Virus record (IMG/VR): IMGVR_UViG_3300044797_000185
Location: 1-64,000 of that record
Direction: 5' to 3' (one strand)
Source of the DNA: a virus
DNA: 64,000 bases
In this document: piece after piece, positions 1 through 53,193 of the stretch
How the letters are laid out: each line of letters opens with the position of its first letter
How positions within the stretch are numbered: position 1 is the first letter of the stretch
Notes under the pieces: model-generated
What the model saw: the letters and a program-made list of their open reading frames with translations, nothing else
What the model was told of the DNA's origin: nothing
Database searches by the model: none
Position numbers and translations under genes: made by a program

Positions 1-1
1 A

Positions 2-1015
2 GTACTTCGTAAAGCTTGGAGTGATTGTGATATTTACTGGCTTCAAGGGTCAATTCAATACGAGGGAAAAGATTATCCAAAACGTATTGTAGATTTGATG
101 CCTAAATCGGTTAAAGAAAAACTTTTTACTAATGATTTAAGTCTTCATTATGATAGTGTAGAATGTTATTCTGAAATTGAATGGAATACCCAATATGAGA
201 TGATATGGATGGAAGATATCAATCTTGTGTTATCAGGTGATCAGCAAAAAAAATTGGCTTCTGGACTTTTTGACATTCTTCTAAAAGGTCGTCCAGAAAT
301 GACAGAAAAATATTATTTCGGTCTCGATACAGCATCTGGAACTTTGATGCCTGGGCAGAAAGATTTAGACTGGACTGTGCTTACAATTTTAAGAAAAAAT
401 GGTGATAATACTAAAGATATAGTAGCTAAGTATATGTGGCAAGGTGATGTTGTTTCTCAGATGCAGGAAATACGAGATTTAGTGCATCCAATTGATGGTG
501 TGTTCCAATGTCACATGGGCCTCGCTGATTACTCCAACATTGCTATAGGTATTGTAGAGATGTTTAAAAAAGAGGGCATTCCCATAGCAGGAGTGACTTT
601 TGGTGCTACAGAACCTATCACAAAAAAGAATTATAAGAATGCTATGGTAGATCAATTTGTGTTTGAACTTGATAGTGGACGAGTTCAATATCCCAACATT
701 GAAACAATTAAAAAAAATAAAGTTTTTAAAGATGGCTATGAGCAATGGGGTCTTCTTGAAAGGCATCGTAAACTAGGTATCAATGATAAGATTTTCGTTG
801 ATCCTTCCGCAGGACATGATGACCATGTTTCTGCTGATATTCTCGCTGTTTGGTGTGCTGACCAAGAGAAGGCTTATGCAGGTAAGGTTGTGCGAACGAT
901 GAAGGGTATTCCTACTCCAATTGCTGGCCCAGCCAACCTTTCAGGGCATGGCTCACCAATGCCAGGGCAAGATGGTAATCCGAATGCTGGAAGATTCCTC
1001 AAAGATAGGGGTTGA
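2..1015 (+). CDS. terL: Terminase large subunit, C-terminal nuclease part (5'-truncated by the window)
   Basis: Frame is open from base 2 (VLRKAWSDCD...). Has RNase H-like motif YYFGLDTASG and C-terminal HDDHVSAD. Lies just upstream of the portal. Confidence 0.8.
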   Translation, partial: VLRKAWSDCDIYWLQGSIQYEGKDYPKRIVDLMPKSVKEKLFTNDLSLHYDSVECYSEIEWNTQYEMIWMEDINLVLSGDQQKKLASGLFDILLKGRPEMTEKYYFGLDTASGTLMPGQKDLDWTVLTILRKNGDNTKDIVAKYMWQGDVVSQMQEIRDLVHPIDGVFQCHMGLADYSNIAIGIVEMFKKEGIPIAGVTFGATEPITKKNYKNAMVDQFVFELDSGRVQYPNIETIKKNKVFKDGYEQWGLLERHRKLGINDKIFVDPSAGHDDHVSADILAVWCADQEKAYAGKVVRTMKGIPTPIAGPANLSGHGSPMPGQDGNPNAGRFLKDRG

Positions 1016-13167: not shown

Positions 13168-13806
13168 ATGGAAAAGATTAGCGGTGTCTATTTAATTACT
13201 CATATTGAAAGTAAAAAAATATATGTAGGTTCATCTATTGATATTTCACGTAGATGGAAAGAACATATAAATCATCTTAATTTAAATAAGCATGAAAATC
13301 CTAAACTTCAAAATGCTTGGAATAAATATGGAGAAGATGCTTTTAGATTTGAAATTTTAGAAAAAGTAGAACCTATCAAAGAAAAAATATTATCAATAGA
13401 ACAAATTTATTTAGATAGATATCAAAGTTACAAAAGAGAATTGGGATTTAATCTTTATAAAACTGCTGGAAGTCCTCAAGGAACCCAATGGGATGAGGAA
13501 CAAAAAGCAAGATTGTCAGAAACACGTAAAAATCAATTTAAAGTAGAAGAAGGTCATTTTAAAGGTAAAAAACATAGTCTTGGAACACGAGAAGCTATGC
13601 ATAAAGTTCATGAAGAGAGATATAAAAAACTTCAAGAAGAAGGAAAAGTACCTCCTCAAACTGGTTACAAACATACAATAGCAGCACGTAATAAAATGAT
13701 AGAAGCTAATAAAGATAGAGTTCTACCTAAAAATTTCGCAGAAAATGTTCGTAAACGTAGATTAGAAACTAAGCTAGTTAATGGTCATTGGGTTCATCCT
13801 ATATAA
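13168..13806 (+). CDS. GIY-YIG homing endonuclease with NUMOD3-like repeats
   Basis: SGVYLITHIESKKIYVGSS...RRWKEH...LQNAWNKYG; later KHSLGTR and KHTIAAR motifs. Confidence 0.9.
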   Translation: MEKISGVYLITHIESKKIYVGSSIDISRRWKEHINHLNLNKHENPKLQNAWNKYGEDAFRFEILEKVEPIKEKILSIEQIYLDRYQSYKRELGFNLYKTAGSPQGTQWDEEQKARLSETRKNQFKVEEGHFKGKKHSLGTREAMHKVHEERYKKLQEEGKVPPQTGYKHTIAARNKMIEANKDRVLPKNFAENVRKRRLETKLVNGHWVHPI

Positions 13807-15787: not shown

Positions 15788-16717
15788 ATGACAAATATTT
15801 ACATTCTTAAAGGTAACAATATTATAGAATCAGTCGTACCAGACTTTAAAGCACCAGTTATTAATAGTGTCCCAGTTGTTTATGTGAGCCTTAATAATCC
15901 TGTTCTTGCTTCTGCATCTACCTATGCTGTTCTAGGAGATACAGCAGTAACCAATACAGGAAATACAGTCCTAACTGGAGATCTTGGTATTTCCCCAGGT
16001 AATACCATCACTGGTTTTCCTCCTGGTACATATACAGGTACTCTTCATCAAGGTGATGCAGCAGCAGCTCAGGCTCATGCCGATGCAACAGCAGCCGCAA
16101 CAGCATTGAAAGCACTTACTCCTACCACAGATATTTCTTCAACAGATCTTGGTGGAGCAACACTTACTCCTGGTAATTACCATGCAACATCAACTGGTAC
16201 GTGGAGTGCAGGTCCTTTGACATTAAATGGTGCAGGACAATATGTGTTTGTATTTGGTACAGGACTTACTATGCCAGCAAGTGCAACAGTGGTATTGGAG
16301 AATGGTGCAACAGCCGATAACGTTTATTTCGTAACTGGAACAACTTTCACCTTTGGTGCAAATTGCACAGTCAACGGAAACATTCTTGCAGGTACATCTA
16401 TTACATTCGCAGCTTCTAGCGTACTTAATGGAAGAGCCTTAACATATGGTCCCTCTGGGACAACCGTAACATTCCCAAGTGCAGGAACAGTAACGGTTCC
16501 TTCTAATTCTAGTACTTCCTTTAGTTACACTATCACAGCTTTAAATTCACCTTCAGCATTCTATGCAACGTATTTGCCATGGGATTTGGTTATTAATCAT
16601 AGTACTGGAGTAATTTCTGGAACTATTTTTCCTAATAGTGTTGGTGAATTTCGTATTCCATTAGAGGCTGTTAATGATGCTGGTGTAGGTTCAATGGTAT
16701 TAACAATCCAAATCTAA
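15788..16717 (+). CDS. Ice-binding-like (DUF3494) domain protein with C-terminal putative Ig domain
   Basis: YAVLGDTAVTNTG..GDLGISPG..ITGFPPG..DLGGATLTPG.Y..ADNVYF..NGNILAGTSIT; then FSYTITA...GVISGT. Confidence 0.85.
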   Translation: MTNIYILKGNNIIESVVPDFKAPVINSVPVVYVSLNNPVLASASTYAVLGDTAVTNTGNTVLTGDLGISPGNTITGFPPGTYTGTLHQGDAAAAQAHADATAAATALKALTPTTDISSTDLGGATLTPGNYHATSTGTWSAGPLTLNGAGQYVFVFGTGLTMPASATVVLENGATADNVYFVTGTTFTFGANCTVNGNILAGTSITFAASSVLNGRALTYGPSGTTVTFPSAGTVTVPSNSSTSFSYTITALNSPSAFYATYLPWDLVINHSTGVISGTIFPNSVGEFRIPLEAVNDAGVGSMVLTIQI

Positions 16718-27763: not shown

Positions 27764-30466
27764 ATGCCATTAAACTTTAAACACATTAATGCTGGTGAAC
27801 AGATATTTGATGGATCTTTTACTACTCCACTTTTTGCAGATGGCGTAGTTACTGCTAATAAACTGGGAGTTGCAGCTGGTTTGACAATCCAGGATATTAC
27901 TTATGCAGCAGTAAATGGTGGAGCTGGTGGAAATGCTATCACAATTCAGTATGTAGAAGATGGAATAGCTGGACTAGAAACTGTTACCGTTTCTGGCACA
28001 GCCATCACTGTTCATATTGGAAATCATACTGTTCTTGGTTCTACAGCCACACAAGTTCAAGCCGCTATTTTAACTTCAGCTGCTGCATCTTTGTTAGTTA
28101 CACCCGTTATAACAGGAACTCCAAGTAATATTCAGTTGGGAACGGGTGTAACATCTTTGACAGGTGGAATAACAGGTGGGACAGGAGTTTCTTCAATTCA
28201 TGCTGACAGCTTTCCAGATTTAGTGGGGGCTGTTCAACTGGTATCTGGTACTAACATTACTCTTTCTCAAACAGGTCAAGCCATTACGATTAATTCTAGC
28301 GGATCTGGTAGTGCAGTTTGGGGCACCATAACAGGAACACTTTCGAATCAAACAGATTTGGAAACAGCCTTAAATAGTAAACAAAATACATTAACTATAG
28401 GAAATTTAACGGATACTGGAACTGATGGTATTACTATCACTAGTGGAACAGGATCAGTTATAGGAAGTGGAACGTCTATTGCACAACATGTTGCTGACAC
28501 TACTCATTCTGGATATCTTTCCTCTTCAGATTGGAATACCTTTAATAGTAAACAGCCCAGTGGTAATTATTTAACAACTACCTTAGCCGATGCAAATATA
28601 TTTATTGGTAATGTTAGCAATATAGCCACTGCTGTACCCTTGTCAGGAGATGTTTCTATTTCTGTCAGTGGAGTTGTCCATGTAAATAGTGTACAAAATA
28701 ACTCTATTATTAGTAGTTCTATCGCTTCTGGTCAAGTTGTTAAAAGTGTTAATTCATTAACTGATGCAGTTGTATTGGCCGCTGGAACAAATATCACAAT
28801 TACTCCTTCTGGTAATACACTAACATTTGCTTCAACAGGAAGTGGAAGCGGAACAATTAATACTGGATCTCAATATGATTTGGCTTATTATGCTGCTAAT
28901 GGAACAACCTTGTCTCCTCTTCCTCGATTGGGGGCTAATGGAGTTGTTGTAACGGATAGTAATGGTCTTCCAATTTCTAGTGGAGCTTTACCTTACAATT
29001 ATATCTTTTTTGATGGTTCTCTCCAAAATAGCAATTTTAGTGCTGCTGCAAATATAAATATTTCTGCACTTTCTTCTGGTGCACCTAATCAGTTATTGGG
29101 TGTATCAGCGGGGGCAAATACTTGGGCTGCTACTGAGAGTTTAATTCATGCTGTAAATACGCAAACACAAACATTGTTACCAAACGGCACTGTGTTATCT
29201 GCTGGTGGTGGTAATACCTCTGTTTGGACAAATTTTGCTGAAATATATACCCCCTCTTCTGGTACTTGGGTTGAAACTGGCAATTTAAATCATGGCAGAG
29301 ATGGTCATTGTGCTGTTCTTCTATTAGATGGACAGGTATTACTTGGTGGTGGAGATGATGGCAGTAATATTTTAAATGTATGCGAACTCTACAATCCCGC
29401 CACTGGACTTTGGACTCTGACAGGTAGTTTTAATACAGCTAGATATTTTACATCTTTCACTCTACTACCTAACGGAATGGTATTATGTGCAGGTGGTGTC
29501 GGAACTGTAGGAGCACTTACTTCCTGTGAACTCTACAATCCCGCCACTGGACTTTGGACAGTTACTGGTAGTATGGCCAATGCTCGAAATTCTAATGGTG
29601 GAACGATGGCTGTCTTGCTTCAGAACGGCACCGTATTAATAGCAGGTGGAGATGACACAGTTAATCCCACTGCTTCAGCTGAAATTTATAACCCAGTAAC
29701 TGGCACTTGGTCAGCTACAGGTAGTTTAAATACAGCTAGAACTTCTCAAGGTATGAATTTATTTCCAAATGGGACTGTATTAGTAAATGGTGGCTTTGGT
29801 CCTGGTTTTACAGCAACCAATACTTCTGAAATTTATAATCCTGTTACAGGAACATGGTCTACAACAGGGAATTTAAATACGGCTAGAGCCGCACATATTT
29901 CTGTATTATTGCCTAGTGGAATGGTATTAGTAAATGGAGGAGGTTTTCCAATCACTAATACTTCTGAACTCTACAATCCCGCCACTGGTACATGGGCTTT
30001 GGTAGGGAATTCATCTGTTTCAGTATATAATCAAGCAGCAACTTTATTGCCTACAGGCGAAGTATTAATGGCTGGTGGTTATAATGGCACTTCTACTACG
30101 GCTGTCGCTGAATTATTTTCCTCTTTAACTAATGAATGGAAAACATTAACAGGTACTTCAAATCAGATTGTAGTAACTAATACGGCGGGAGTAATTACTT
30201 TATCAACCCCTCAAAATATTGGTATAACTTCTACTCCTACTTTTGCATCTTTAACTCTTACAAGTCCTCTAGCAGTAGCCGAAGGTGGAACTGGAACAAC
30301 TACTCCTAGTCTTATTGCAGGAACAAATGTAACAATAACTGGTTCTTGGCCAGATCAAACAATTAATGCAACAGGTGGTGGAGGTAGTTTTGATGTTGAT
30401 ACTATTTTGACATCATTAGCAGGAGAAGTTTTAGTAAATTCAAGTGGCAATGTTTTAGTTGCCTAA
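27764..30466 (+). CDS. Tail fibre with Kelch beta-propeller
   Basis: About six Kelch blades (LxNGxVLxxGG...ELYNPxTGxWxxTGxxNxAR) at roughly 29140-30130, flanked by fibre repeats. Confidence 0.8.
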   Translation: MPLNFKHINAGEQIFDGSFTTPLFADGVVTANKLGVAAGLTIQDITYAAVNGGAGGNAITIQYVEDGIAGLETVTVSGTAITVHIGNHTVLGSTATQVQAAILTSAAASLLVTPVITGTPSNIQLGTGVTSLTGGITGGTGVSSIHADSFPDLVGAVQLVSGTNITLSQTGQAITINSSGSGSAVWGTITGTLSNQTDLETALNSKQNTLTIGNLTDTGTDGITITSGTGSVIGSGTSIAQHVADTTHSGYLSSSDWNTFNSKQPSGNYLTTTLADANIFIGNVSNIATAVPLSGDVSISVSGVVHVNSVQNNSIISSSIASGQVVKSVNSLTDAVVLAAGTNITITPSGNTLTFASTGSGSGTINTGSQYDLAYYAANGTTLSPLPRLGANGVVVTDSNGLPISSGALPYNYIFFDGSLQNSNFSAAANINISALSSGAPNQLLGVSAGANTWAATESLIHAVNTQTQTLLPNGTVLSAGGGNTSVWTNFAEIYTPSSGTWVETGNLNHGRDGHCAVLLLDGQVLLGGGDDGSNILNVCELYNPATGLWTLTGSFNTARYFTSFTLLPNGMVLCAGGVGTVGALTSCELYNPATGLWTVTGSMANARNSNGGTMAVLLQNGTVLIAGGDDTVNPTASAEIYNPVTGTWSATGSLNTARTSQGMNLFPNGTVLVNGGFGPGFTATNTSEIYNPVTGTWSTTGNLNTARAAHISVLLPSGMVLVNGGGFPITNTSELYNPATGTWALVGNSSVSVYNQAATLLPTGEVLMAGGYNGTSTTAVAELFSSLTNEWKTLTGTSNQIVVTNTAGVITLSTPQNIGITSTPTFASLTLTSPLAVAEGGTGTTTPSLIAGTNVTITGSWPDQTINATGGGGSFDVDTILTSLAGEVLVNSSGNVLVA

Positions 30467-34242: not shown

Positions 34243-34839
34243 ATGGGTGATTCAACTGAATCTGGAGTCTATCAGATTCTTAATAAAGTTAATGGAAAAC
34301 GATATATTGGTTCTGCTGTTAATTTTATGAAACGTTGGTCTGATCATAGGACTCATTTGACTAAAAATATTCATCCAAATGATTACTTACAAAAATCAGT
34401 TAATAAGTATGGTCTTGATTCATTTAATTTTGAGATTGTTGAGAAAGTTACAGATCTTACACAATTGTTACAACGTGAACAATATTGGATGGATTATTAT
34501 AAGAGTTCTGATGATTTGTTTGGATATAATATTCGTTTAAATGCTCAAAATAATAAGGGACTTAAACATTCAGATGAGACTAAGCAAAAAATGAGATTAG
34601 CTCATCTCGGTAAAAAGCAATCTCTTGATCATATTAAAAATGCTGCTGATTCTCATAGAGGTAAAAAACGTACTGAAGAACAAGCTAAACGATGCGCTCG
34701 TACTTGGTCAGATGAACAAAGACAGCAACGTAGTGAACAACAAAAACAAATTTTTAAACGTGATGGTATGTCAGAAGAAACACGTCAAAAATGTAGAGAC
34801 GCTGCTTTAAAGCAGTGGGAATTAAAAAAACAAATCTAA
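34243..34839 (+). CDS. GIY-YIG homing endonuclease with NUMOD3-like repeats
   Basis: SGVYQILNKVNGKRYIGSA...HPNDYLQKSVNKYG; KHSDETKQKM. Confidence 0.9.
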   Translation: MGDSTESGVYQILNKVNGKRYIGSAVNFMKRWSDHRTHLTKNIHPNDYLQKSVNKYGLDSFNFEIVEKVTDLTQLLQREQYWMDYYKSSDDLFGYNIRLNAQNNKGLKHSDETKQKMRLAHLGKKQSLDHIKNAADSHRGKKRTEEQAKRCARTWSDEQRQQRSEQQKQIFKRDGMSEETRQKCRDAALKQWELKKQI

Positions 34840-35423: not shown

Positions 35424-36794
35424 ATGGCTAATGCTAATCCTTACTTAGTTTTAACTAGAGTACGAGATGCTGTCATTCTTGAACTTAGAGAAATCTTTGC
35501 CCCAAGGCATAATACAGCTGTAGTACCTGCCTTTGAATATAATTATATTGAAACATCTTCATCTGGGAACATTCAATTTTATGGTAATCCTTCAAATGGA
35601 AATACCGTTATAATTGGTGTAAATACAATTACGTTCGTAACTGGAACCCCATCAGGACTTCAAGTTAGAATTGGAGCAACGCAGCAAATTACTTTAGCAA
35701 ATTTAGTTGCTTTTATAAATGCAAATAGCAGTACTTTGCTGGTAACAGCCACTACAAATAGTGTTCCAAATATAGTTAATTTGATTGCAACAGCCCAAGG
35801 GGTTTCAGGAAATTTAATTACATTAGCTGTGAGTTCTACTGTGCTACGAGTTTCTTCCCCCACCCTTACTCAGGGGGGTTTGTTTGATTTTGATAATTCT
35901 GAAATTTTTATTTCTGATGCTATCCCTCAAGATTACCAGGATTGGCCATGCCTTATTGTTAATACTGCAATGGCAACTGAAACCCGATATCTTGGTCCAG
36001 AAGATAGCTTTGAAACAAAGAATAATTTTAACGTAGTAACACAATCAGAGATATTTTCTAGTTTAGTTGTGACTGTAACGATCACTCTTTACGTTATTGA
36101 CGATACACTTGCTCGTGATAAAATTATTGATTTAATTTATAATAATATGTCTGAAATACGACATCAACTCGCTTCAAATGGTATTGAAATGATTGACCGT
36201 ACAATGCCTACTGAAAATAGACAGTTTCAGGATCAGAGACAATATATTACTAATAATTTTATTTTACGAGTTTATTGTGAATGGAGTGATAACCAAGAAA
36301 TTACAAATATATCAAGTGTGTCTGTTTCTGTTCCTGTGACCCCAAATGCTGTTCCTATTATTAATAGCCCAATAAGTGCTTCCTATACTCATGGAATGCA
36401 ATTTGTTGTTGATAGTGTAGTTGATGCCACACATCTAACAGTAGAAAGTTCATTTGGTATGTCTTCTGGAAATACAATTACGCAAGGAACTCACACAACT
36501 ACAATCACTACAGTAGTAGATAATAATCATTTAACAGTAGGTTCCACAACAGGATGGATTCCTGGAAATGCTTCAAATACTTCAGTTAATTTACCCTTTT
36601 CATACATTATAACAGCTTCTGGTAATCCCACTTCCTATGGTGCTATTGGGTTGCCTTCAGGATTGACTGTGGATGCAGGTAATGGGCTTATTAGTGGAAT
36701 TCCTACTTCAGTCGGTAGTCCTTTTTATATTACTCTAAATGCTACGAATGCTACAGGTCAAGGAACACAGTCTTTGACTCTCACAGTTTCTTAA
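35424..36794 (+). CDS. Putative tail terminator/completion protein with inserted and appended beta modules
   Basis: Core IFISDAIP...WPCLIVN...ARDKIIDLI; Thr-rich module at ~36396-36585; C-terminal putative Ig (He_PIG-like) domain. Confidence 0.5.
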   Translation: MANANPYLVLTRVRDAVILELREIFAPRHNTAVVPAFEYNYIETSSSGNIQFYGNPSNGNTVIIGVNTITFVTGTPSGLQVRIGATQQITLANLVAFINANSSTLLVTATTNSVPNIVNLIATAQGVSGNLITLAVSSTVLRVSSPTLTQGGLFDFDNSEIFISDAIPQDYQDWPCLIVNTAMATETRYLGPEDSFETKNNFNVVTQSEIFSSLVVTVTITLYVIDDTLARDKIIDLIYNNMSEIRHQLASNGIEMIDRTMPTENRQFQDQRQYITNNFILRVYCEWSDNQEITNISSVSVSVPVTPNAVPIINSPISASYTHGMQFVVDSVVDATHLTVESSFGMSSGNTITQGTHTTTITTVVDNNHLTVGSTTGWIPGNASNTSVNLPFSYIITASGNPTSYGAIGLPSGLTVDAGNGLISGIPTSVGSPFYITLNATNATGQGTQSLTLTVS

Positions 36795-36937: not shown

Positions 36938-39436
36938 ATGCCTTCAATTAATAATCAGCCAGTTCTTCCAGGCGTATTTTCCCAGGTCCAACAGCAATTG
37001 CTTCCTTCTGTAACAGGTGGAATCAGAGTTGCTGCTTATATTGGAACTGGTCGTTTGACCAATTTAGTTGTTGGTGAAGCAGTCATTCGTGGTTCAGGAA
37101 ATCTTGATGCTCTCTTGCATCCAGCAGTTGCTCTTGATGGGACTTCAATTTCTGATGCCAACTTTGCAACTTATGAATTAGGTGTTGATTATTCTCTTAG
37201 TGGACCTTTTATTATTACTTCTGTTACTGATGGAACTCATTTGGTTGTTTCTTCAACAACAGGTATGTCTTCTGGAAATACAATTACGCAAGGAACTGCT
37301 TCTACAGATATCGTAACAGTTACTGATGGAACTCATTTGGTTGTTTCTTCAACAACAGGATTTGTTGCAGGTACTGCTTTAAATACTTCTATCGATGGAA
37401 TTAATTGGCTTACTGGTGCTATTTCCTTAACAGGAACAGCAAGTGATCCTTATGCAGGTCTTAGTGGAAAAACTTTCCAACTTTCAGTTGCAGGTGGACC
37501 AATTCAAACAGTTACTTTTTCAACAGAAACATCTGCTGATCAAGTTGTTGCTACTTTGAATGGTGCATTAACTGGGGCTGTCGCTTCTACTCCAGAAGTT
37601 CCAGTGCCAACTCTTGGTTCAGCATCTACTTATGCTGTTATCGCAAGTTCTACTATTACAAATACTGGTTCTACCACTCTCACAGGAAATGTTGCACTTA
37701 GTCCAGCAGGTTCTATCACAGGTTCCCCAACAGTTGTTGGAACAACTCATAATGGTGATGGTACAGCTGCGACAGCTTTAGCTGATGCTAACACAGCTTA
37801 TACTGCTTTTGCAGCTCTTCCAGGTGCAACTGATTTATCAGGAATGGTATTAGGAACAGGTGGAACAGTACCTACTCTTACTCCAGGCGTTTATAAATTT
37901 ACTTCTTCAGCACAGCTTACTGGTGCTTTAACACTCGATGCTGCTGGCAATCCAAATGCACAGTGGGTTTTCCAGATTGGTTCTACATTAACAACAGCAT
38001 CTGCTTCTTCAGTATTGTTAATTAATGGAGCTTCCGCTGGTAACATCTATTGGCAAGTTGGTAGCTCCGCTACCCTTGGAACAACAACAGCATTTAAAGG
38101 AACTATCATTGCTCAAGCAAGTGTAACAGATACTACAGGCGCAACAGTTCAGGGTCGCTTATTTGCCCTTACTGGAGCAGTAACATTAGACACAAATACA
38201 GTAACAGTTGTTCCAGGAACAACCCCAGGCGGTTCTTCAGTTACAATTACAACAACTGCTACATCTAATTCTTCTCTTACAATTGAAAATGGAACAGCAA
38301 ATAGTATTCTTGGTTTTACTGCTGGTTCATTAGTTTCTACTCCTTCTCGTCCAGTACTTGGCGTTACTTATTATGTCAATTATGAGTGGGCAAAGGCATT
38401 AAATGATGGACAGAGTAGCTTTCAACCTCAGTTTTTCTTCTTGCAGAATTTTAGTACAATTACAAATGCAATGGGAACTGTTGGTGGTGGCGATTCACAA
38501 ACTGCTAATATGTCAGGCGCATGGACTCTTCCAATTGCAGCACAACTCGCACAACAGAATGGTGCAAGCATTGTTTGTTTAATGCAGATGAATCCAGCAG
38601 ATGGCTCTAATGCATCGCAGGTTCGCGCAGCATTACAAAAGCTTTTCATTCCAAATATCAACATCGTTGTTTCACTCGATGCTGCTGATAATGCAATGCT
38701 AATTCCAGACATCACAAATCACGTTGAAACTGCTTCTAGCACGATTAACCGATTAGAGAGAACAGCATTCATTGGATTCTCCGCTCTTTCAAATCCTAGC
38801 GATGCAACAATGCTTGGATATGCAACCGCTGCTTCCAGTAATCGTGTAGTTGTAGTTAACCAGACCAATACAACATACACAATGTTTATTGGAACTAACC
38901 AAACAGCTTCTACGGTTGATGGAACAATGGCCGCAGCAGCACTTGCTGCCATTCGAACAGATCCCGCATTTGACGTTGCACAGCCATTAACACGCGAAGT
39001 ATTATCAGGTATTGCTACAACAAATACATTGGCACAATCTGAAAAAACAATCTTTGTTAATAATGGTGTATTAGTTATTGATAATGTATCTGGTTCACCA
39101 AAGGTATTGTTTGGAACTACAACAGAATTTGACACAATTCTTAACCAATTGTATCAAGTCACTGAAATTACAGATTATGTAGCACAAACATTGCGTGGAT
39201 TGCTCGATCCAATTTTCATTGGACAGAAATTGCTTACAAATACTCCTTCACAGGTTGAAACAGTTTCAGGTGCAATTCTTACAACGATTGAAGCTTCAAA
39301 CATCATTGAGTCATTTACACAGCCTTCCGCAACAGTAAATCCTCAACAGCCAACTCAGATTTTGCTTCAGGTAGGCATACAACCCGTCTTAGAACTGGAT
39401 ACCATCCTAATCACATTGGGATTGAACTTAGTATAA
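36938..39436 (+). CDS. Tail sheath protein with inserted Thr-rich module and DUF3494 ice-binding-like domain
   Basis: N-terminal PGVFSQVQ motif; C-terminal sheath core (QPLTREVLSG...NNGVLVI...VTEITDYVAQ...IQPVLELDTI); DUF3494 motifs at ~37604-38214; followed by the tube gene. Confidence 0.85.
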   Translation: MPSINNQPVLPGVFSQVQQQLLPSVTGGIRVAAYIGTGRLTNLVVGEAVIRGSGNLDALLHPAVALDGTSISDANFATYELGVDYSLSGPFIITSVTDGTHLVVSSTTGMSSGNTITQGTASTDIVTVTDGTHLVVSSTTGFVAGTALNTSIDGINWLTGAISLTGTASDPYAGLSGKTFQLSVAGGPIQTVTFSTETSADQVVATLNGALTGAVASTPEVPVPTLGSASTYAVIASSTITNTGSTTLTGNVALSPAGSITGSPTVVGTTHNGDGTAATALADANTAYTAFAALPGATDLSGMVLGTGGTVPTLTPGVYKFTSSAQLTGALTLDAAGNPNAQWVFQIGSTLTTASASSVLLINGASAGNIYWQVGSSATLGTTTAFKGTIIAQASVTDTTGATVQGRLFALTGAVTLDTNTVTVVPGTTPGGSSVTITTTATSNSSLTIENGTANSILGFTAGSLVSTPSRPVLGVTYYVNYEWAKALNDGQSSFQPQFFFLQNFSTITNAMGTVGGGDSQTANMSGAWTLPIAAQLAQQNGASIVCLMQMNPADGSNASQVRAALQKLFIPNINIVVSLDAADNAMLIPDITNHVETASSTINRLERTAFIGFSALSNPSDATMLGYATAASSNRVVVVNQTNTTYTMFIGTNQTASTVDGTMAAAALAAIRTDPAFDVAQPLTREVLSGIATTNTLAQSEKTIFVNNGVLVIDNVSGSPKVLFGTTTEFDTILNQLYQVTEITDYVAQTLRGLLDPIFIGQKLLTNTPSQVETVSGAILTTIEASNIIESFTQPSATVNPQQPTQILLQVGIQPVLELDTILITLGLNLV

Positions 39437-39486: not shown

Positions 39487-40017
39487 ATGGCCGAATTAGG
39501 GAATACGATTGCTCGACTTAGTACTAGCGTTTCACTTTTTGTACTTCCAAAAACTTTGGATGCTACCACATTAAATAACCCAGCAGCTCTTTTAGCTCTT
39601 GCACAACAGAGCACAAAGATTGGTGCTGTACAATCCTTTACCCAAACTCAAAGACGAAATACAGATTTTCGATTTGAATTGGATTCTGATTCTCAGGGAA
39701 AGCCAGTTGAAAGACTTCCTCGCACAGTTGATGAGTATTCTATTCGTGCTCAGCGCGTAATGCTTTACATTTCTGATGCTTTAGAAATCCTTGGTATTAG
39801 CGGTGATGATATTGTTAATAACAATGCCCCAATTGGTATTCTTAAGCAAGAAATTGCTCCAGCAGGTTCAGGCGTTCCTACAAAGAGCACAATCTTTACA
39901 GGAGTTTGGATTCACTCAGTTGGTGCAACGTATAATATTTCTGGTGGCGATTTGCGCGTAATGGAAGATGTCGATTTTGGTTATACAGGATCTACAGTAA
40001 TTGGTGAACCAGCCTAA
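39487..40017 (+). CDS. Tail tube protein
   Basis: 176 aa directly after the sheath gene; AAGGAG SD. Confidence 0.75.
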   Translation: MAELGNTIARLSTSVSLFVLPKTLDATTLNNPAALLALAQQSTKIGAVQSFTQTQRRNTDFRFELDSDSQGKPVERLPRTVDEYSIRAQRVMLYISDALEILGISGDDIVNNNAPIGILKQEIAPAGSGVPTKSTIFTGVWIHSVGATYNISGGDLRVMEDVDFGYTGSTVIGEPA

Positions 40018-41085: not shown

Positions 41086-41994
41086 ATGAAACAGCGATTA
41101 AATTTAGAAGGGCAAAAATTTGGATTGTGGTTTGTAGTTAAGTATTTCCATCAGGATAAATGGAGAACTGCTTTATGGGAATGTCTATGTGATTGTGGCA
41201 GTATAAGATTTCTTAAAACAGATACTTTGATAAAAGGTAAGTCTTCTTCATGTGGGTGTTTCCGAAGTAAACGAATGGCACACCAAAATAAGAAACTTTT
41301 TACAACACATGGATTTTCTTCTAGAAATAATAAAATATCCCGTAAATTTTACAGAGCATGGCAAGGAATGCTAGATAGATGTTTAAATAAAAATGGTGAA
41401 TTTTATTATAGATATGGAGGTCGTGGCATTAAGGTTTGTGATGAATGGTTAACATTTGAAGGTTTTAAAGAAGATATGTATGAATCATATTTAAAACATG
41501 GTAAAGATTTTGGTTTTGGAAGAAGTACAACCTTAGATCGTATCGAAGTAAATGGTAATTATTGTAGAGAAAATTGTAGATGGCTTACACAGGCAGAACA
41601 AATGCTTAATACTTCTGTTACAGCCAATGTTAAAGATCATGTTTCCTTTATAAAATTTAGACTTTCTTTAGAACGATTTATTCTCTATATTTTATTTGAA
41701 AATAGAGATTTTTTTAAAGCAACAATTAAAAAATGTGTTGATCTTACAGGATGTACTCCAATTGAACTTAAAGAGTATATTGCTTCTCAATTTAAAGATG
41801 GTATGACTTGGGATAATCATGGTCTTTATTCAAAACAATATCCAAAAGTATGGAATATTGATCATATTATACCTGTAAAAGATTTTGATCTTTCCTTAGA
41901 ATTAGAGCGTAAACTTTGTTTTAACTATAAAAATTTACGACCTTTATGGGGTAAAGATAACAATGTTAAAAGATGCCACACATCAAAAGTTTAA
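41086..41994 (+). CDS. HNH-type homing endonuclease with two nuclease-like domains
   Basis: GQKFG...WECLCDCG; LDRIEVNGNYCRENCRW; WNIDHIIP...NLRPLW..DN. Confidence 0.8.
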   Translation: MKQRLNLEGQKFGLWFVVKYFHQDKWRTALWECLCDCGSIRFLKTDTLIKGKSSSCGCFRSKRMAHQNKKLFTTHGFSSRNNKISRKFYRAWQGMLDRCLNKNGEFYYRYGGRGIKVCDEWLTFEGFKEDMYESYLKHGKDFGFGRSTTLDRIEVNGNYCRENCRWLTQAEQMLNTSVTANVKDHVSFIKFRLSLERFILYILFENRDFFKATIKKCVDLTGCTPIELKEYIASQFKDGMTWDNHGLYSKQYPKVWNIDHIIPVKDFDLSLELERKLCFNYKNLRPLWGKDNNVKRCHTSKV

Positions 41995-42196: not shown

Positions 42197-43954
42197 TTGG
42201 CAGATCTATTAGGCCCTTCTGGGCAACCATTGCAACCTAATCCATTTCAAACAGGACAATCTTCTCTTCCTTTAAATACAACCCAGGCTCAAAGAGCTAT
42301 GGCTGACTTACAGAAGAGTATGGATGGTCTTCTTGGATCATTTAAGACTAATTGGGATAAGGCTACTCAGGAACGTCTTCATGCAGAAGAAACGTTTTTT
42401 CGTTCCGTTGATAAACTTTCTAAATCCAATCACGCTAACCTATTGCGTCAAAAAGATGAATATATATCCAAAATTAAACAAGAAGCAAGTGCCCAATTAG
42501 ATGCCTATCAAAAAGAAGTATCTGAAGGTAAAAGATCTGCTGAAGAATTAGCTTCATTTCGAACAGCTAAAGCGGTTGAAGTAAATAAAAAAGTTGTTGA
42601 AGCTGAACGAGATGTTAATAGAAAGCGTACTGAGGAACTTAAAAAAAGTGGTTTTCTATCCCAGTCAGGACAATTTTTAGGTCAAGTTGGTGGTCATATT
42701 GGTGGTGTATCTGGAGCTGCCATTTCTGGTGTTGGAAGTGCTCTTGGACTTCTAGCCAATCCTGCTTTTGATGTAGCTGCCATCATAGGTTTAGCTGTAG
42801 CAGCAGCTTTTAAAATAGGTGAGCAAGAGGCCCAAAAGGTACGAATAGGGGCTTCCTTGGCTTCTGGAGGCTTTGGAATAGGGGCTGGAGGAAGAGCAGC
42901 TGCTGGAATAGAGGGTGGAGGGTTATTCGGTCCCCTTTTTGGTAGTGCTTTAAGTGCCAAAGATCAAGAACGTCTTGTTGGAACAATGGCAACTTCTCCT
43001 CAATTATTGCAGGGGGCTACTTCCTCAAATAAAGATTTTTTGGATACTATGGGATTATTCGCTAATGTAATGCCAGATTCCACCGAAATTATAAAAGAAA
43101 TGGTTCGAGAGTCTAATTCCTTGGGCATGTCTTTTAAACAAATGCAACAGACTTTTACGAGTGTTCGTGTAAATCAGCATACACTTAATAGTAGCTTTTC
43201 AGACACTATAAATACACAGCTTGCTATGCAGAAATCATTACGTAATCTTACTAATGATACAGGTGTAGCAGCAAGTCTTATTAATAATCTTGGAACCTAT
43301 TTTGATAAGATTAAAGCTAATCCTGAAGAACGTCAAAGAATGGCTTCTGGTTTTGCCGCTGGCATTGCTAATCTTTCTCTTTCTCAAATCGTTGGTATGG
43401 CTGGATTTATTGGAGGCGGTAAACTTCCAACTCATGATCAATTGTTTGGAGGATCTAATCCTTTAGTTGGTGCAGGAACTCCTGCTTTGTTAGGTAATTT
43501 TCTATCTAAAGTAGGAGCACAGGCTGGCCCAAGAGGAACTATACAATCTGATTTAGTTGCAGATCAGTTAAGACAACAATTCTTACAAGGATCTCGTCTA
43601 CAAGATGTAGGAAGTTTCTTTCAAGCAGTAGATGCATTAAAAGCAGGTAAGATTACCTCTGCACAATTTGGTAAAAAGTTTGAAACTTTGGAAAAGAATA
43701 CCCCTCAAGGACTTATGGCTGAGGGTATTCAAAAACTTGGAGCTGTTTTAGGACCAGAAGGGCAATTTGAAAAATTTCTAAGTGCCTTTTTTACTAAGAT
43801 GATTGAAGACTTGGAAATTATTGCAGGTAAAAGAGATGGTCCTGGGGTTAGCAGAGTTAAGCATATTGTTTCTGAAGTAACAGGGGCTCATTCTAAGAAA
43901 GATTTAGCTAAAAAAATTATAGGAACTACGTTACATATCGCTTCAAATGTATAA
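42197..43954 (+). CDS. Tape measure protein
   Basis: TTG start with GAGGT SD; helical, Ala/Gly-rich; located between chaperone and baseplate genes. Confidence 0.7.
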   Translation: MADLLGPSGQPLQPNPFQTGQSSLPLNTTQAQRAMADLQKSMDGLLGSFKTNWDKATQERLHAEETFFRSVDKLSKSNHANLLRQKDEYISKIKQEASAQLDAYQKEVSEGKRSAEELASFRTAKAVEVNKKVVEAERDVNRKRTEELKKSGFLSQSGQFLGQVGGHIGGVSGAAISGVGSALGLLANPAFDVAAIIGLAVAAAFKIGEQEAQKVRIGASLASGGFGIGAGGRAAAGIEGGGLFGPLFGSALSAKDQERLVGTMATSPQLLQGATSSNKDFLDTMGLFANVMPDSTEIIKEMVRESNSLGMSFKQMQQTFTSVRVNQHTLNSSFSDTINTQLAMQKSLRNLTNDTGVAASLINNLGTYFDKIKANPEERQRMASGFAAGIANLSLSQIVGMAGFIGGGKLPTHDQLFGGSNPLVGAGTPALLGNFLSKVGAQAGPRGTIQSDLVADQLRQQFLQGSRLQDVGSFFQAVDALKAGKITSAQFGKKFETLEKNTPQGLMAEGIQKLGAVLGPEGQFEKFLSAFFTKMIEDLEIIAGKRDGPGVSRVKHIVSEVTGAHSKKDLAKKIIGTTLHIASNV

Positions 43955-50742: not shown

Positions 50743-53193
50743 ATGCCAATTAATTATACGTTGAAAGTAAATGAAAGAGCAATACCTCAAGCAATAACTA
50801 ATGAAGCACATACAGTTGGAATTGTAGGTGTCTTCACAGTCGCTTCAGGAGAAATTCGCTTAATTGAGGTTCCTCAAGGGCCAGCTCCAGCTGTAACCAT
50901 AACTGGTTCTGGTGGCCCCTATAATGAAATTACAAGCGGGTCCCCTACTGGGGGTCAATTTTTAGTTAATTATTCTACAGGAGTTGTTACTTTTTCTACA
51001 GCTCAAAATGGGAATAGCGTTTTAGCTTCTTATACGGGACTTGGTTCTGAAATTGCAGCAGAAGATATCAATGAGCTTGAAATACCTGTTGGAATTGCCT
51101 TAAATGCTGATGGTTCTCTATCTGCTGGCATTGTTACAACCTCTAGTATTTCTAATTCAGCCGTTATTTCTCTAACAAATCTACAAACTTTAAATCCTTC
51201 CATTGTCCCCGTAACTAATGGTTCTGGTGTATTAACATCTTCTTCTACTACAGCAACGGAACTTGGTTATGTCCATGGTGTAACTTCTAATATTCAAACA
51301 CAGATTAATGCTCTTTCTTCGGGTACGGTATCTTCAATAACAGGAACAGCTAATGAAGTTATTGCTTCTTCCTCTACAGGAGCCATTACTCTTTCTCTAC
51401 CTCAACCTATAGCTACTACTTCTTCTCCAACATTTGCTTCACTCACACTCACTTCTCCTCTTACAGTAGCTAATGGTGGTACAGGAGATGCAACATTAAC
51501 AGCATACTCAGTACTTACTGGTGGTACTACTTCTACAGGAGCAGTTCAATCAGTATCAGGTGTAGGAACTACAGGACAAGTATTAACGAGTAATGGAGCA
51601 AGTACACTTCCTACATGGCAGACCCCTTCTGCTACAGGCATTACTGCTTTAACAGGCGATGTAGTTACTAATCCCGCTACTTTACTTGGCTCAGCTGGTT
51701 CTTTTGCAGTTCTAGGAGACACAGCAGTTACAAATACAGGAAGCACTGTTCTTACTGGTGATTTAGGTATCTATCCAGGAACATCTATTACAGGATTCCC
51801 TCCAGGAACATTTACAGGCACAGAACATATTGCTGATGCTACAGCAGCACAAGCACATACTGATGCTACTTCAGCCGCTACAACATTAAAAGCAATGGGA
51901 CCTGGAACAAACATTAGTTCTACAGATCTCAATGGTTTTACGGCTGTTCCAGGTGTTTATTCAGCAACAGCAGCAGGTACATGGACAGCAACAGGTAATT
52001 TAACCTTAAATGGTGCAGGAACTTATGTATTTTTGTTTGGAACTTCTCTTACTATAGGTTCAAACTGTAATGTAGTTTTAACTGGTGGAGCTACAGCTAA
52101 TAACGTTTACTTCGTAACTGGTACATTCTTTACTTTCGGAGCTAATGATACTATTAATGGTAATATCTTAGCTGGAACATCCATCACCTTTGCAGCTTCT
52201 AGCGTACTTAATGGTTGTGCTCTTATTTATGGTCCCTCTGGGACAACCGTAACATTCCCAAGTGCAGGAACAGTAACAGCTTCTGGTGGTACTAGTGGAA
52301 CAGCAGTTACTACTGTAGAAAGTGTTGGTGGATCTTCAGCAGCTAATATTCATAGTGCAGAACTTCTTGCTAATGCTGCTACATCTTTAGATACCCCATC
52401 AACTATAGTAAAACGTGATGCAAGTGGTAATTTTGCAGCTGGAACGATTACTCTTGACGATCAGGGAGCAATTGTATTTGAAGATTTGGCAGGTACAGCA
52501 TCCGTTACTTTAGAGGCTCCTACTACTGTTACAACAAGTTACACTTTAAATTTACCAATAGCACAAGGAAGTAGTGGTCAAACATTGAGTAATGATGGTA
52601 CTGGAATTTTAAGTTGGGTTACACCTGCTGGTGCAACGTATACAGCTGGAACGGGTATTACTTTAACAGGATCTTCTTTTTCACTTACGGCTCCAGTTAC
52701 TATTGCTTTAGGTGGAACAAATAGTACAACAGCTTTAACAAATAATAAAGTAATGATTTCAAGTTCTGGAGCTATTATAGAATCTGGAACTACTACAACT
52801 GAATTAGGTTTCGTCGATGCCACTAGCTCTATTCAGACACAATTAAACAGTAAACAATCAGCTACTTTGGCAGATGCAAATATTTGGGTTGGTAACGGCT
52901 TTAATACAGCAACAGCAGTTTCCTTAAGTGGGGATGCTACTTTGTCGGACACAGGAGTATTAACTCTTTCCACTGTAAATTCTAATGTTGGTTCTTTCAC
53001 TAATGCTAATATTACTGTAAATGCTAAAGGATTAATTACTGCTGCTTCTGATGGAAGTGCTAGTAGTACAGCAACATCATTTCAGATTTTAGCTAGTGAC
53101 CCAGGAAGTCCTACTACTGCTGAAGTTTGGTTTAACTCAACTGATTTTCAATTTAAGGGATATAACGGCACATCAACAGTAATTCTTGGTTAA
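50743..53193 (+). CDS. Tail fibre-like protein with internal DUF3494 ice-binding-like domain
   Basis: Fibre repeats shared with 27764 and 31487; DUF3494 motifs at ~51670-52277. Confidence 0.8.
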   Translation: MPINYTLKVNERAIPQAITNEAHTVGIVGVFTVASGEIRLIEVPQGPAPAVTITGSGGPYNEITSGSPTGGQFLVNYSTGVVTFSTAQNGNSVLASYTGLGSEIAAEDINELEIPVGIALNADGSLSAGIVTTSSISNSAVISLTNLQTLNPSIVPVTNGSGVLTSSSTTATELGYVHGVTSNIQTQINALSSGTVSSITGTANEVIASSSTGAITLSLPQPIATTSSPTFASLTLTSPLTVANGGTGDATLTAYSVLTGGTTSTGAVQSVSGVGTTGQVLTSNGASTLPTWQTPSATGITALTGDVVTNPATLLGSAGSFAVLGDTAVTNTGSTVLTGDLGIYPGTSITGFPPGTFTGTEHIADATAAQAHTDATSAATTLKAMGPGTNISSTDLNGFTAVPGVYSATAAGTWTATGNLTLNGAGTYVFLFGTSLTIGSNCNVVLTGGATANNVYFVTGTFFTFGANDTINGNILAGTSITFAASSVLNGCALIYGPSGTTVTFPSAGTVTASGGTSGTAVTTVESVGGSSAANIHSAELLANAATSLDTPSTIVKRDASGNFAAGTITLDDQGAIVFEDLAGTASVTLEAPTTVTTSYTLNLPIAQGSSGQTLSNDGTGILSWVTPAGATYTAGTGITLTGSSFSLTAPVTIALGGTNSTTALTNNKVMISSSGAIIESGTTTTELGFVDATSSIQTQLNSKQSATLADANIWVGNGFNTATAVSLSGDATLSDTGVLTLSTVNSNVGSFTNANITVNAKGLITAASDGSASSTATSFQILASDPGSPTTAEVWFNSTDFQFKGYNGTSTVILG

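What the first reader, a model, noticed from the sequence alone, without database searches (positions are those of the whole stretch)
37604..38214. Ice-binding-like domain inserted within the contractile sheath subunit
Seen: about 200 aa of DUF3494-type sequence lies between the sheath N-terminal arm and its conserved core. Established: sheaths tolerate extra outward-facing domains and are present in many copies per tail. Inference: a helical array of binding faces whose spacing would change on contraction. This copy has the highest avidity potential.
Basis: partly seen in the sequence, partly recalled or inferred. Interest (0 to 1): 0.8.

Follow-up and report, generated by a model that had tools for sequence, protein, structure and literature searches.

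The report
Ice-binding-fold domain displayed on phage sheath
The tail-sheath protein of a large uncultured phage carries a complete copy of the fold that cold-adapted microbes use to grip ice, spliced into a loop of its outer part. The tail is therefore probably studded with over a hundred copies of one flat, threonine-lined binding face, but whether that face binds ice or something else is untested.

Summary
ORF 36938-39436 (+, 832 aa) is one uninterrupted gene. Its N-terminal part (aa 28-85) and C-terminal part (aa 471-818) form a contractile-sheath core (Z 20-25 to the sheaths of phage 812, pyocin R2, T4 gp18 and others). Residues 222-428 are a full, canonical-order DUF3494/Ice_binding beta-solenoid (Pfam E 2.4e-56; Z 34.6, rmsd 0.9 A, 44% identity to AnpIBP).

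The domain sits in a hairpin turn of a small outer domain, at the topological position where T4 and phage G sheaths carry their outermost domains.

It is not an assembly artefact. Fourteen of 65 orthologue clusters from independent sources have the insert, including one complete 192-kb genome. The other clusters lack it.

The insert is an exchangeable cassette. Two deep domain classes occupy the same site. Between two of the sheaths the domain is 91% identical while the core is 54% identical.

The face that binds ice in AnpIBP is 93% Thr/Ser/Ala/Gly here and free of aromatic residues. It keeps the hexapeptide that holds AnpIBP's two essential residues, and it is more conserved than the rest of the domain.

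Ice binding, habitat and the orientation of the face could not be tested. The scan has already reported this architecture in at least 7 other genomes. Verdict: a real new variant of sheath decoration with an open function.

The parts
36938..39436 (+). Tail sheath gene, 832 aa, a single open frame
   Evidence: Sheath fold: Z 25.0 to phage 812 8q1i_I; Z 24.2 and rmsd 2.4 A over 227 aa to 8r5g_N; Z 20-21 to pyocin R2 3j9q and T4 gp18 3j2m. tblastn to annotated sheaths.
36938..37018 (+). N-terminal arm (aa 1-27), unstructured in the monomer model
   Evidence: pLDDT below 50 for residues 1-27. Phage G gp178 likewise has its first 26 residues disordered in AlphaFold (PMC8570332).
37019..37192 (+). 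Conserved N-terminal part of the sheath core (aa 28-85)
   Evidence: DNA homology to insert-less orthologues covers gene nt 1-255. Sheath structural alignments start at model residue 28.
37193..38262 (+). Variable outer cassette (aa 86-442). Insert-less orthologues have only ~90 aa here.
   Evidence: blastn homology to L013, L010 and L009 stops at gene nt 255 and resumes at nt 1326; alignment A1.
37199..37393 (+). Two ~33-aa Thr-rich 'TDGTHLVV.STTG' repeats (aa 88-152)
   Evidence: The same module sits at three different sites in different orthologues.
37394..37600 (+). First half of the small outer domain (strand-strand-helix-strand, aa 153-221)
   Evidence: DSSP of the model: E179-184, E190-193, H200-210, E214-217. 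These equal E118-123, E129-132, H140-151, E156-159 in the insert-less orthologue model.
37601..38221 (+). DUF3494 / Ice_binding beta-solenoid (aa 222-428), canonical strand order
   Evidence: Pfam E 2.4e-56, 1-208/208; Z 34.6 and rmsd 0.9 A to 7bwy; pLDDT mostly 84-96.
38063..38080 (+). Hexapeptide SSATLG (aa 376-381) on the predicted flat B-face, identical to AnpIBP S153-G158
   Evidence: Alignment. S153Y and T156Y cut AnpIBP activity to 17% (PMC7277481). The other B-face segments are aa 238-243, 258-261, 323-328, 349-354, 394-399 and 413-418.
38222..38347 (+). Second half of the small outer domain (aa 429-470)
   Evidence: E436-439 and E446-449 correspond to E162-166 and E179-182 of the insert-less model.
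38348..39391 (+). Conserved C-terminal sheath core (aa 471-818)
   Evidence: 78-92% identical among close orthologues; hits to Tunturi_5 and phage G sheaths; weak Phage_sheath_1C match at aa 740-826.
39392..39433 (+). C-terminal arm (aa 819-832), unstructured in the monomer model
   Evidence: pLDDT below 50 for residues 819-832.
39487..40017 (+). Probable tail tube gene (176 aa) directly downstream
   Evidence: Nearest named Atlas cluster carries Phi812_tail_tube, score 0.97 (a lead only). It follows the sheath gene in all 20 related loci searched, at 83-93% identity.
53208..55406 (+). Baseplate-region protein (732 aa) whose ice-binding-fold domain is the closest paralogue of the sheath copy (65% aa, 71% nt)
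   Evidence: Same class I in the domain tree.
50743..53193 (+). 816-aa tail protein with a class II ice-binding-fold domain
   Evidence: Pfam E 1.7e-34, model positions 1-194; tree.
15788..16717 (+). 309-aa protein with a class II ice-binding-fold domain
   Evidence: Pfam E 2.6e-40, model positions 1-195; tree.

Best explanation
The gene encodes the contractile tail sheath subunit of a ~190-kb-class uncultured myovirus. A complete DUF3494 beta-solenoid has been spliced into a hairpin turn of a small outer domain. The chain runs arm, core, outer domain, solenoid, outer domain, core, arm. When subunits polymerise around the tube through their terminal arms, every subunit should project one solenoid away from the tube, six per ring and on the order of 100 or more per tail. 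The solenoid's flat, aromatic-free, Thr/Ser/Ala/Gly-lined B-face is the working surface. The many copies give a weak binder high avidity, so the tail acts as a multivalent adhesin. The ligand I consider most likely is ice, or the ordered water layer at an ice surface. This would hold virions at ice/brine-film boundaries in seasonally frozen habitats, or protect them during freeze-thaw. The domain is an accessory cassette that related phages gain, lose and trade. Shown here: gene identity, both folds, the insertion point, the presence/absence polymorphism, cassette exchange, and conservation of the B-face. Inferred: outward display, copy number, binding and ligand.
For: Sheath identity: and (relatives P0073, P0071 and P0215 pass the Pfam sheath cut-offs). 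Domain identity and canonical order.

Loop insertion: the secondary-structure elements of the small domain match one for one between the 832-aa model and the 565-aa insert-less model. The solenoid falls in the turn between its strands 3 and 4.

Outward position: the cassette (aa 86-442) lies where T4 gp18 has its exposed domains I/II (88-345), given that model 28..819 aligns to gp18 21..634. Phage G has its outermost domain (120-218) in the same place. Extra sheath domains generally lie away from the tube (PMC9230969).

Binding face: 25 of 27 outward positions homologous to the AnpIBP ice-binding site are T/S/A/G (93%, against 57% for the whole domain), with one Gln and no aromatic residue. 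The SSATLG segment holding AnpIBP's essential S153 and T156 is identical. These exposed positions are as conserved as buried ones and more conserved than the rest (entropy 0.45 vs 0.75, p 0.008).

Nearest solved relatives are all experimentally ice-active proteins at 43-50% identity.

Accessory, selected trait: related records hold 0 to 5 copies and 14 of 65 sheath clusters carry it. GC3 of the insert (0.15) matches the rest of the gene, so it is long resident in AT-rich phages.
Against: No habitat or temperature data could be obtained, so a link to freezing is untested. DUF3494 proteins also occur outside ice habitats and are described as putative substrate-binding or adhesive proteins (PMC12337378). 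The closest cellular homologues (56-66% identity, thousands of clusters) are named from Gemmatimonadota, Rhodanobacter, Sulfuriferula and Planctomycetota MAGs, groups not specific to ice, and many carry PEP-CTERM anchors. The other add-on modules of this sheath are also Thr/Ser-rich (57-65%), so part of the composition signal is a property of the gene. The orientation of the B-face in the assembled lattice is unknown; it could pack against a neighbour. The conservation test uses related, non-independent sequences.
Confidence: 0.45

Rival explanations
1. The display architecture is the same, but the ligand is not ice. The solenoid array binds host-associated or environmental polymers (exopolysaccharide, capsule, biofilm matrix, plant or mineral surfaces). 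It would keep virions where hosts are, as proposed for Ig-like decorations on phage sheaths and capsids.
For: DUF3494 is described as occurring in substrate-binding and adhesive proteins from many environments. The closest cellular homologues are surface-anchored (PEP-CTERM, IPTL-CTERM) proteins of common soil and freshwater bacteria. The same domain also sits on baseplate-region and fibre-like proteins, where receptor or matrix binding is the usual role. Adhesion is the function generally proposed for extra sheath domains (PMC9230969).
Against: The predicted binding face has no aromatic residue and almost no charge, unlike typical carbohydrate-binding surfaces (general knowledge). The residues essential for ice binding in AnpIBP are retained exactly. 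Every solved close relative is an ice binder.
Confidence: 0.3
2. The domain has no external ligand. It acts as a structural decoration that cements neighbouring sheath subunits and stabilises the long extended tail, as proposed for domain II of the phage 812 sheath.
For: Stabilisation by extra domains is an accepted hypothesis. Flat hydrophobic DUF3494 faces tend to pack face to face in crystals (PMC7277481).
Against: About 78% of close orthologue clusters do without it while keeping near-identical cores. Two unrelated domain classes occupy the same site, and the same domain occurs on non-sheath proteins that have no lattice. Lateral exchange between sheaths only 54% identical is hard to reconcile with co-adapted lattice contacts.
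Confidence: 0.12
3. The junction is an artefact (chimeric assembly), or the insert is a neutral passenger or is removed before assembly.
For: The window comes from a metagenomic record that is only 61% complete. No expression or proteomic data could be obtained.
Against: The same architecture appears in 14 clusters from JGI, ENA, NCBI and Logan assemblies and in a complete genome with terminal repeats. The reading frame is uninterrupted. The codon composition of the insert matches the gene. The exposed face is under stronger conservation than the rest of the domain. The insert is internal, so excising it would cut the N-terminal arm from the core.
Confidence: 0.03

Closest known systems
AnpIBP (PDB 7BWX/7BWY, Antarctomyces psychrotrophicus) and EfcIBP (PDB 6EIO): single-domain DUF3494 ice-binding proteins
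   Same: Same fold at rmsd 0.9-1.6 A over 200-210 residues and 44-49% identity. Same strand order, the helix alongside the solenoid, and a flat B-face. The SSATLG segment with AnpIBP's essential S153 and T156 is identical.
   Different: Those are free, secreted, single-domain proteins acting in solution. Here the domain has no signal peptide, is internal to an 832-aa structural protein, and would be immobilised in a helical lattice. Its ice activity is untested.
SfIBP_1 of Shewanella frigidimarina (PDB 6BG8): DUF3494 plus tandem Ig-like domains, proposed ice adhesin
   Same: A DUF3494 domain held on a surface by beta-rich stalk domains and proposed to attach a particle (there a cell) to ice. 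Structural match Z 30.3. Its role is described in PMC11645318.
   Different: It is a cell-surface protein of a bacterium, monomeric on a stalk. It is not a repeated element of a viral contractile machine.
Multi-domain phage tail sheath proteins (T4 gp18, phage 812 gp103, phage G gp178; 'type 3' sheaths of Evseev et al. 2022)
   Same: A conserved core built from the N- and C-terminal parts. Extra domains are nested in the N-terminal third and point away from the tube. The terminal arms are disordered in the monomer.
   Different: Known extra domains are mostly Ig-like sandwiches or helical. The 112-sheath survey does not mention an ice-binding fold (0 occurrences). No GenBank phage among 50,697 records matched the insert by tblastn. 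Here the extra region is also a hot spot with several interchangeable modules.
PF11999 'ice-binding-like' genes reported on Arctic viral contigs as auxiliary metabolic genes (PMC11515562)
   Same: The same Pfam family, encoded by phages.
   Different: There it was read as a free host-cryoprotection gene. Here it is part of virion structural proteins, which implies a role for the particle itself.

Membership tests
Contractile tail sheath proteins (Pfam Phage_sheath_1 PF04984 / Phage_sheath_1C PF17482) | [quoted passage not shown] | tested here: met
   VIA-align Z 25.0 (8q1i_I), 24.2 with rmsd 2.4 A over 227 aa (8r5g_N), 21.3 (3j9q pyocin R2) and 20.0 (3j2m T4 gp18), spanning model residues 28..817. 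Foldseek E 1e-13 to 1e-8.
Contractile tail sheath proteins (Pfam Phage_sheath_1 PF04984 / Phage_sheath_1C PF17482) | Sequence homology to recognised sheath proteins | tested here: met
   tblastn to annotated sheaths of Tunturi_5 (1e-7) and phage G (6e-7). Relatives found with the core pass the Pfam cut-offs (P0073 PF04984 47.3 bits; P0071 and P0215 PF17482 29-41 bits). The protein's own PF17482 match is below the cut-off (16.3 vs 26.9 bits).
Contractile tail sheath proteins (Pfam Phage_sheath_1 PF04984 / Phage_sheath_1C PF17482) | Flexible N- and C-terminal arms used to link subunits | tested here: met
   Residues 1-27 and 819-832 have pLDDT below 50. [quoted passage not shown] That they form the inter-subunit mesh is inferred.
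Contractile tail sheath proteins (Pfam Phage_sheath_1 PF04984 / Phage_sheath_1C PF17482) | Gene context: next to the tube gene and upstream of tape measure and baseplate genes | tested here: met
   A tube-like 176-aa gene follows (a lead) and is syntenic in 20 loci. A gp25-like sheath initiator, Baseplate_J and a tail-collar fibre lie downstream. The tape measure is only a weak lead.
Contractile tail sheath proteins (Pfam Phage_sheath_1 PF04984 / Phage_sheath_1C PF17482) | Assembles as a six-start helix on the tube and contracts | not testable with these tools
   Needs virions or polysheaths and electron microscopy.
DUF3494 / type-1 microbial ice-binding proteins (Pfam PF11999) | Full-length match to the family profile above the curated cut-off | tested here: met
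   191.1 bits vs a 28.7 cut-off, model positions 1-208 of 208; 196 bits in the genome scan.
DUF3494 / type-1 microbial ice-binding proteins (Pfam PF11999) | Discontinuous beta-solenoid of triangular section braced by one long helix, in canonical order | tested here: met
   Z 34.6 and rmsd 0.9 A over 200 of 203 residues to 7bwy, colinear ranges 222..428 vs 1..203. Helix 275-292 in the model.
DUF3494 / type-1 microbial ice-binding proteins (Pfam PF11999) | Flat B-face lined by small residues with spaced hydroxyls, including positions shown by mutation to be needed for ice binding | tested here: met
   The seven segments homologous to the AnpIBP site have 93% T/S/A/G at outward positions. S153 and T156 equivalents are retained in an identical hexapeptide. 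Mapping is by sequence alignment, not by coordinates.
DUF3494 / type-1 microbial ice-binding proteins (Pfam PF11999) | Measured ice activity (thermal hysteresis, recrystallisation inhibition, ice shaping) | not testable with these tools
   Needs recombinant protein.
DUF3494 / type-1 microbial ice-binding proteins (Pfam PF11999) | Origin in an ice-associated or freezing habitat | not testable with these tools
The IMG dataset numbers in the contig names were not found in any paper.

The most novel reading that the evidence does not exclude
The virion itself is an ice-binding particle. A phage uses its contractile sheath, together with its baseplate and fibre proteins, as a multivalent ice adhesin, so that it is retained and protected in, and meets hosts at, the ice/liquid-film interfaces of frozen soils. 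This would be the first structural virus protein with ice-binding activity. It would also be a trait that related phages swap as a cassette according to habitat.
Probability: 0.4. Interest if true: 0.8.

Novelty: new variant of a known kind. Interest (0 to 1): 0.6.

Why it matters
Extra domains on phage sheaths are common, but their function is almost never known. Here the extra domain belongs to a family with a well-defined, easily assayed activity, and with point mutants known to abolish it. The question 'what are sheath decorations for?' therefore becomes directly testable.

If the domain binds ice, it would show that viruses, not only cells, adapt their particles to freezing. That bears on virus survival and virus-host encounter in permafrost, seasonally frozen soils and ice.

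The natural presence/absence series in near-identical sheaths (565 aa versus 832 aa) is a ready-made control set.

A self-assembling tube that displays about a hundred ice-binding domains in a regular lattice is also of interest as a material for controlling ice growth.

Tried and rejected
- **Assembly artefact:** rejected. The same junction recurs in 14 clusters from four data sources and in a complete genome.
- **Circular permutation of the fold** (a lead from earlier notes on other genomes): this copy is colinear with the Pfam model and with 7bwy, so it is not permuted. The class II copies in this window match only model positions 1-195 and were not examined for permutation.
- **Kinship with Myxococcus phage Mx1** (a lead from earlier notes on other genomes): not seen here. 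The portal and baseplate wedge hit Bacillus phage G, Tunturi_5 and actinophage myoviruses at 23-30% identity.
- **Recent capture from a high-GC bacterium:** rejected. GC3 of the insert (0.15) is like the rest of the gene.
- **Habitat:** A paper search for six IMG dataset numbers found nothing, and the listing of cluster members gave no sample names.
- **Host:** the genome-contig scan with the sheath alignment found no relative in 185,579 species genomes.
- **Structure jobs:** the first job, with the 74-row alignment, failed. It was repeated with the 31-row alignment.
- **Radial position:** The radial position of the domain in a sheath lattice could not be computed, so the outward position rests on topology and literature.
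- **Family scans:** PHROGs gave no family for the sheath and none for the presumed tape measure.
- **Transcription signals:** the promoter and terminator scan around the gene was at or below shuffled expectation.
Full report
**What is there**

The window is a one-strand, AT-rich (GC 0.37) block of phage structural genes from a 117,836-bp IMG/VR record estimated to be 61% complete. ORF 36938-39436 encodes 832 residues without interruption.

Pfam Ice_binding (PF11999, the DUF3494 family) matches residues 234-423 over its whole length at E 2.4e-56. A profile scan of the record finds the same place at 3.5e-59 in an open frame with no stops. Three other genes of the window carry the same domain: 15788-16717, 50743-53193 and 53208-55406.

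**Is the carrier a sheath?**

Direct Pfam evidence is weak (Phage_sheath_1C, 16.3 bits, below the cut-off), so I tested it in other ways.

- Residues 470-831 hit the annotated tail sheaths of Tunturiibacter phage Tunturi_5 and Bacillus phage G by tblastn.
- A search with the C-terminal part found 73 relatives. The most distant of them pass the Pfam sheath cut-offs.
- An AlphaFold2 model (mean pLDDT 81.3) aligns to solved contractile sheaths: phage 812, phiCD508, a Streptomyces injection system, pyocin R2, T4 gp18, Mu and Milano. Z is 20-25 over model residues 28 to about 817.
- The next gene (39487-40017) resembles phage 812-type tube proteins (a lead). It follows the sheath gene in all 20 related loci.
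- A gp25-like sheath initiator, a Baseplate_J protein and a tail-collar fibre lie downstream. The portal (1885-3603) is 30% identical to that of phage G.

The gene is a sheath.

**The inserted domain**

In the model, residues 222-428 superpose on AnpIBP (7bwy) with Z 34.6, rmsd 0.9 A over 200 of 203 residues and 44% identity. They superpose on EfcIBP (6eio) at 49% identity. The ranges are colinear, so this copy has the canonical strand order.

A model of a 565-aa orthologue without the insert shows a small strand-strand-helix-strand-strand-strand domain at residues 118-182. The same elements are present in the 832-aa protein (179-217 and 436-449), with the solenoid in the turn between its third and fourth strands. 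The domain is therefore a clean loop insertion into an existing outer domain. This is feasible because the first and last coils of a DUF3494 solenoid lie next to each other (PMC11645318, abstract).

**Inside or outside?**

I could not compute this, because model coordinates are not exposed to the script machine. The argument rests on topology.

- DNA and protein homology to insert-less orthologues covers residues 1-85 and 442-832. Everything between is variable.
- T4 gp18 aligns as model 28..819 to gp18 21..634. Its residues 88-345 form domains I and II, the most exposed ones. Phage G has its outermost domain at 120-218.
- A survey of 112 sheaths concluded that extra domains lie away from the tube-contacting part (PMC9230969).

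Outward display is therefore very likely, but inferred. The orientation of the flat face is unknown.

**Distribution and origin**

- Among 65 full-length orthologue clusters, 14 carry PF11999 (forms of about 754-838 and 976 aa). The rest do not (mostly 561-570 aa), although the cores are 78-92% identical within the close clade.
- Related records hold 0, 2, 3, 4 and 5 copies of the domain. The record with 4 copies is a complete 192,085-bp genome with terminal repeats and has the sheath copy.
- A tree of 31 domains splits into two classes with full support. Most sheath copies group with the 732-aa baseplate-region protein. The sheath copies of P0010 and G002 group with the fibre-like and small proteins. 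The same site was therefore filled at least twice.
- P0005 and P0064 are 90.6% identical in the domain but 54% in the core. P0001 and P0010 are 86% identical in the core but 39% in the domain. This is cassette exchange.
- GC3 of the insert (0.15) is like the rest of the gene, so the domain has long resided in AT-rich phages.
- At the 50%-identity level, further and more divergent sheath clusters also combine PF11999 with Phage_sheath_1C (P0215, P0256).
- No record among 50,697 GenBank phages matched the insert.

**Does it look able to bind ice?**

In AnpIBP the ice-binding site is the B-face, built from seven listed segments. The substitutions S153Y and T156Y reduce activity to 17% (PMC7277481). 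By the HMMER alignment, the equivalent segments here are residues 238-243, 258-261, 323-328, 349-354, 376-381, 394-399 and 413-418.

- The segment with S153 and T156 is identical (SSATLG).
- Of the 27 outward-pointing positions, 25 are Thr, Ser, Ala or Gly (93%). The whole domain is 57% and the AnpIBP site is reported as 70%. There is one Gln, one Asp and no aromatic residue.
- Across 17 class I copies, these exposed positions are as conserved as the inward ones and more conserved than the rest (mean entropy 0.45, 0.39 and 0.75; one-sided Mann-Whitney p 0.008). The sequences are related and not independent, so this is only indicative.
- Class II copies show regular T-x-x-T arrays at the same places.

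This is what an ice-binding face looks like. The lack of aromatics argues against a classical carbohydrate site (general knowledge). None of this is a measurement.

**What speaks for another ligand**

- The family is described as including putative substrate-binding and adhesive proteins from many environments (PMC12337378).
- The nearest cellular homologues (56-66% identity; at least 7,933 clusters at E below 1e-20) include PEP-CTERM and IPTL-CTERM anchored proteins of Gemmatimonadota, Rhodanobacter, Sulfuriferula and Planctomycetota MAGs.
- The other add-on modules of the sheath are also Thr/Ser-rich.
- Habitat data were not obtainable.

**Copy number and contraction**

A sheath has six subunits per ring. 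If the 585-aa protein at 42197-43954 is the tape measure (a weak lead), then at about 1.5 A per residue the tail would be about 88 nm long. That gives roughly 20-odd rings, or about 130 copies. This is an inference. In phage G the contracted sheath occupies about half the tail length, so the axial spacing of any displayed domain would roughly halve. Whether that matters functionally is unknown.

**Comparison and novelty**

Extra outer sheath domains are well known. DUF3494 ice binders are well known. PF11999 has been noted on Arctic viral contigs as a presumed host-protecting gene (PMC11515562). I found no paper that places the fold in a sheath or in any virion protein. Within this scan, however, the same architecture has already been reported and followed up in at least 7 other genomes and noted on this genome.

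I class it as a new variant of a known kind: a sheath decoration with an unusual, assayable fold.

**Verdict**

| Claim | Status | Odds |
|---|---|---|
| Observation (insert present at these coordinates) | confirmed | - |
| Carrier is a sheath; insert is a loop insertion | shown | - |
| Outward multivalent display | very likely, inferred | about 0.85 |
| Ligand is ice | plausible | about 0.45 |
| Ligand is another surface | plausible | about 0.3 |
| Purely structural role | less likely | about 0.1 |

Noticed in passing
window 37199-37393; also 36384-36590, 50134-50274, 54078-54254: A ~33-aa Thr-rich repeat ('TDGTHLVV.STTG') occurs in the sheath, in the 456-aa protein upstream, in Baseplate_J and in the 732-aa protein. 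In sheath orthologues the same module sits at three different insertion sites (after aa ~53, ~87 or ~170). It is therefore a second mobile module, of unknown fold.
   Followed up: partly
window 15899-16435 and 51685-52188; sheaths P0010, P0072, L027: Class II ice-binding-fold copies match only positions 1-195 of the 208-position Pfam model (the last coil is missing). Earlier notes on other genomes describe re-ordered (circularly permuted) copies. I did not check whether these are permuted.
   Followed up: no
protein P0010 (976 aa; locus L027), alignment A1 columns ~400-600: One sheath orthologue has a further ~2 x 100-aa repeat ahead of its ice-binding-fold domain. Related single units occur in P0051 and P0061. 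This is a third kind of add-on at the same hot spot.
   Followed up: no
window 34243-34839, 41086-41994, 13168-13806: Three free-standing homing-endonuclease genes (GIY-YIG, HNH, GIY-YIG) lie among the structural genes. Two of them bracket the neck-sheath-tube block. They may promote the observed exchange of gene segments between related phages.
   Followed up: no
window 27764-30466: A 900-aa protein in the structural block carries a Kelch-repeat beta-propeller (Kelch_6 E 3.7e-34), an unusual domain for a phage particle protein.
   Followed up: no
proteins P0215 (763 aa) and P0256 (1053 aa): Two more divergent sheath clusters (36-42% identical to this one) also combine PF11999 with Phage_sheath_1C. 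In P0215 the domain lies much nearer the N-terminus (aa 59-238), either at a different insertion site or because the N-terminus is truncated.
   Followed up: partly
related record G001 (151,359 bp, holds L013): This relative has an insert-less sheath and no PF11999 copy anywhere in 151 kb. IMG/VR classes it as a provirus, so its ends might reveal the host.
   Followed up: no
window 1885-3603: The portal protein is 30% identical to the Bacillus phage G portal over 85% of its length. The nearest cultured relatives of this phage are phage G, Tunturi_5 and large actinophage myoviruses, all distant.
   Followed up: partly
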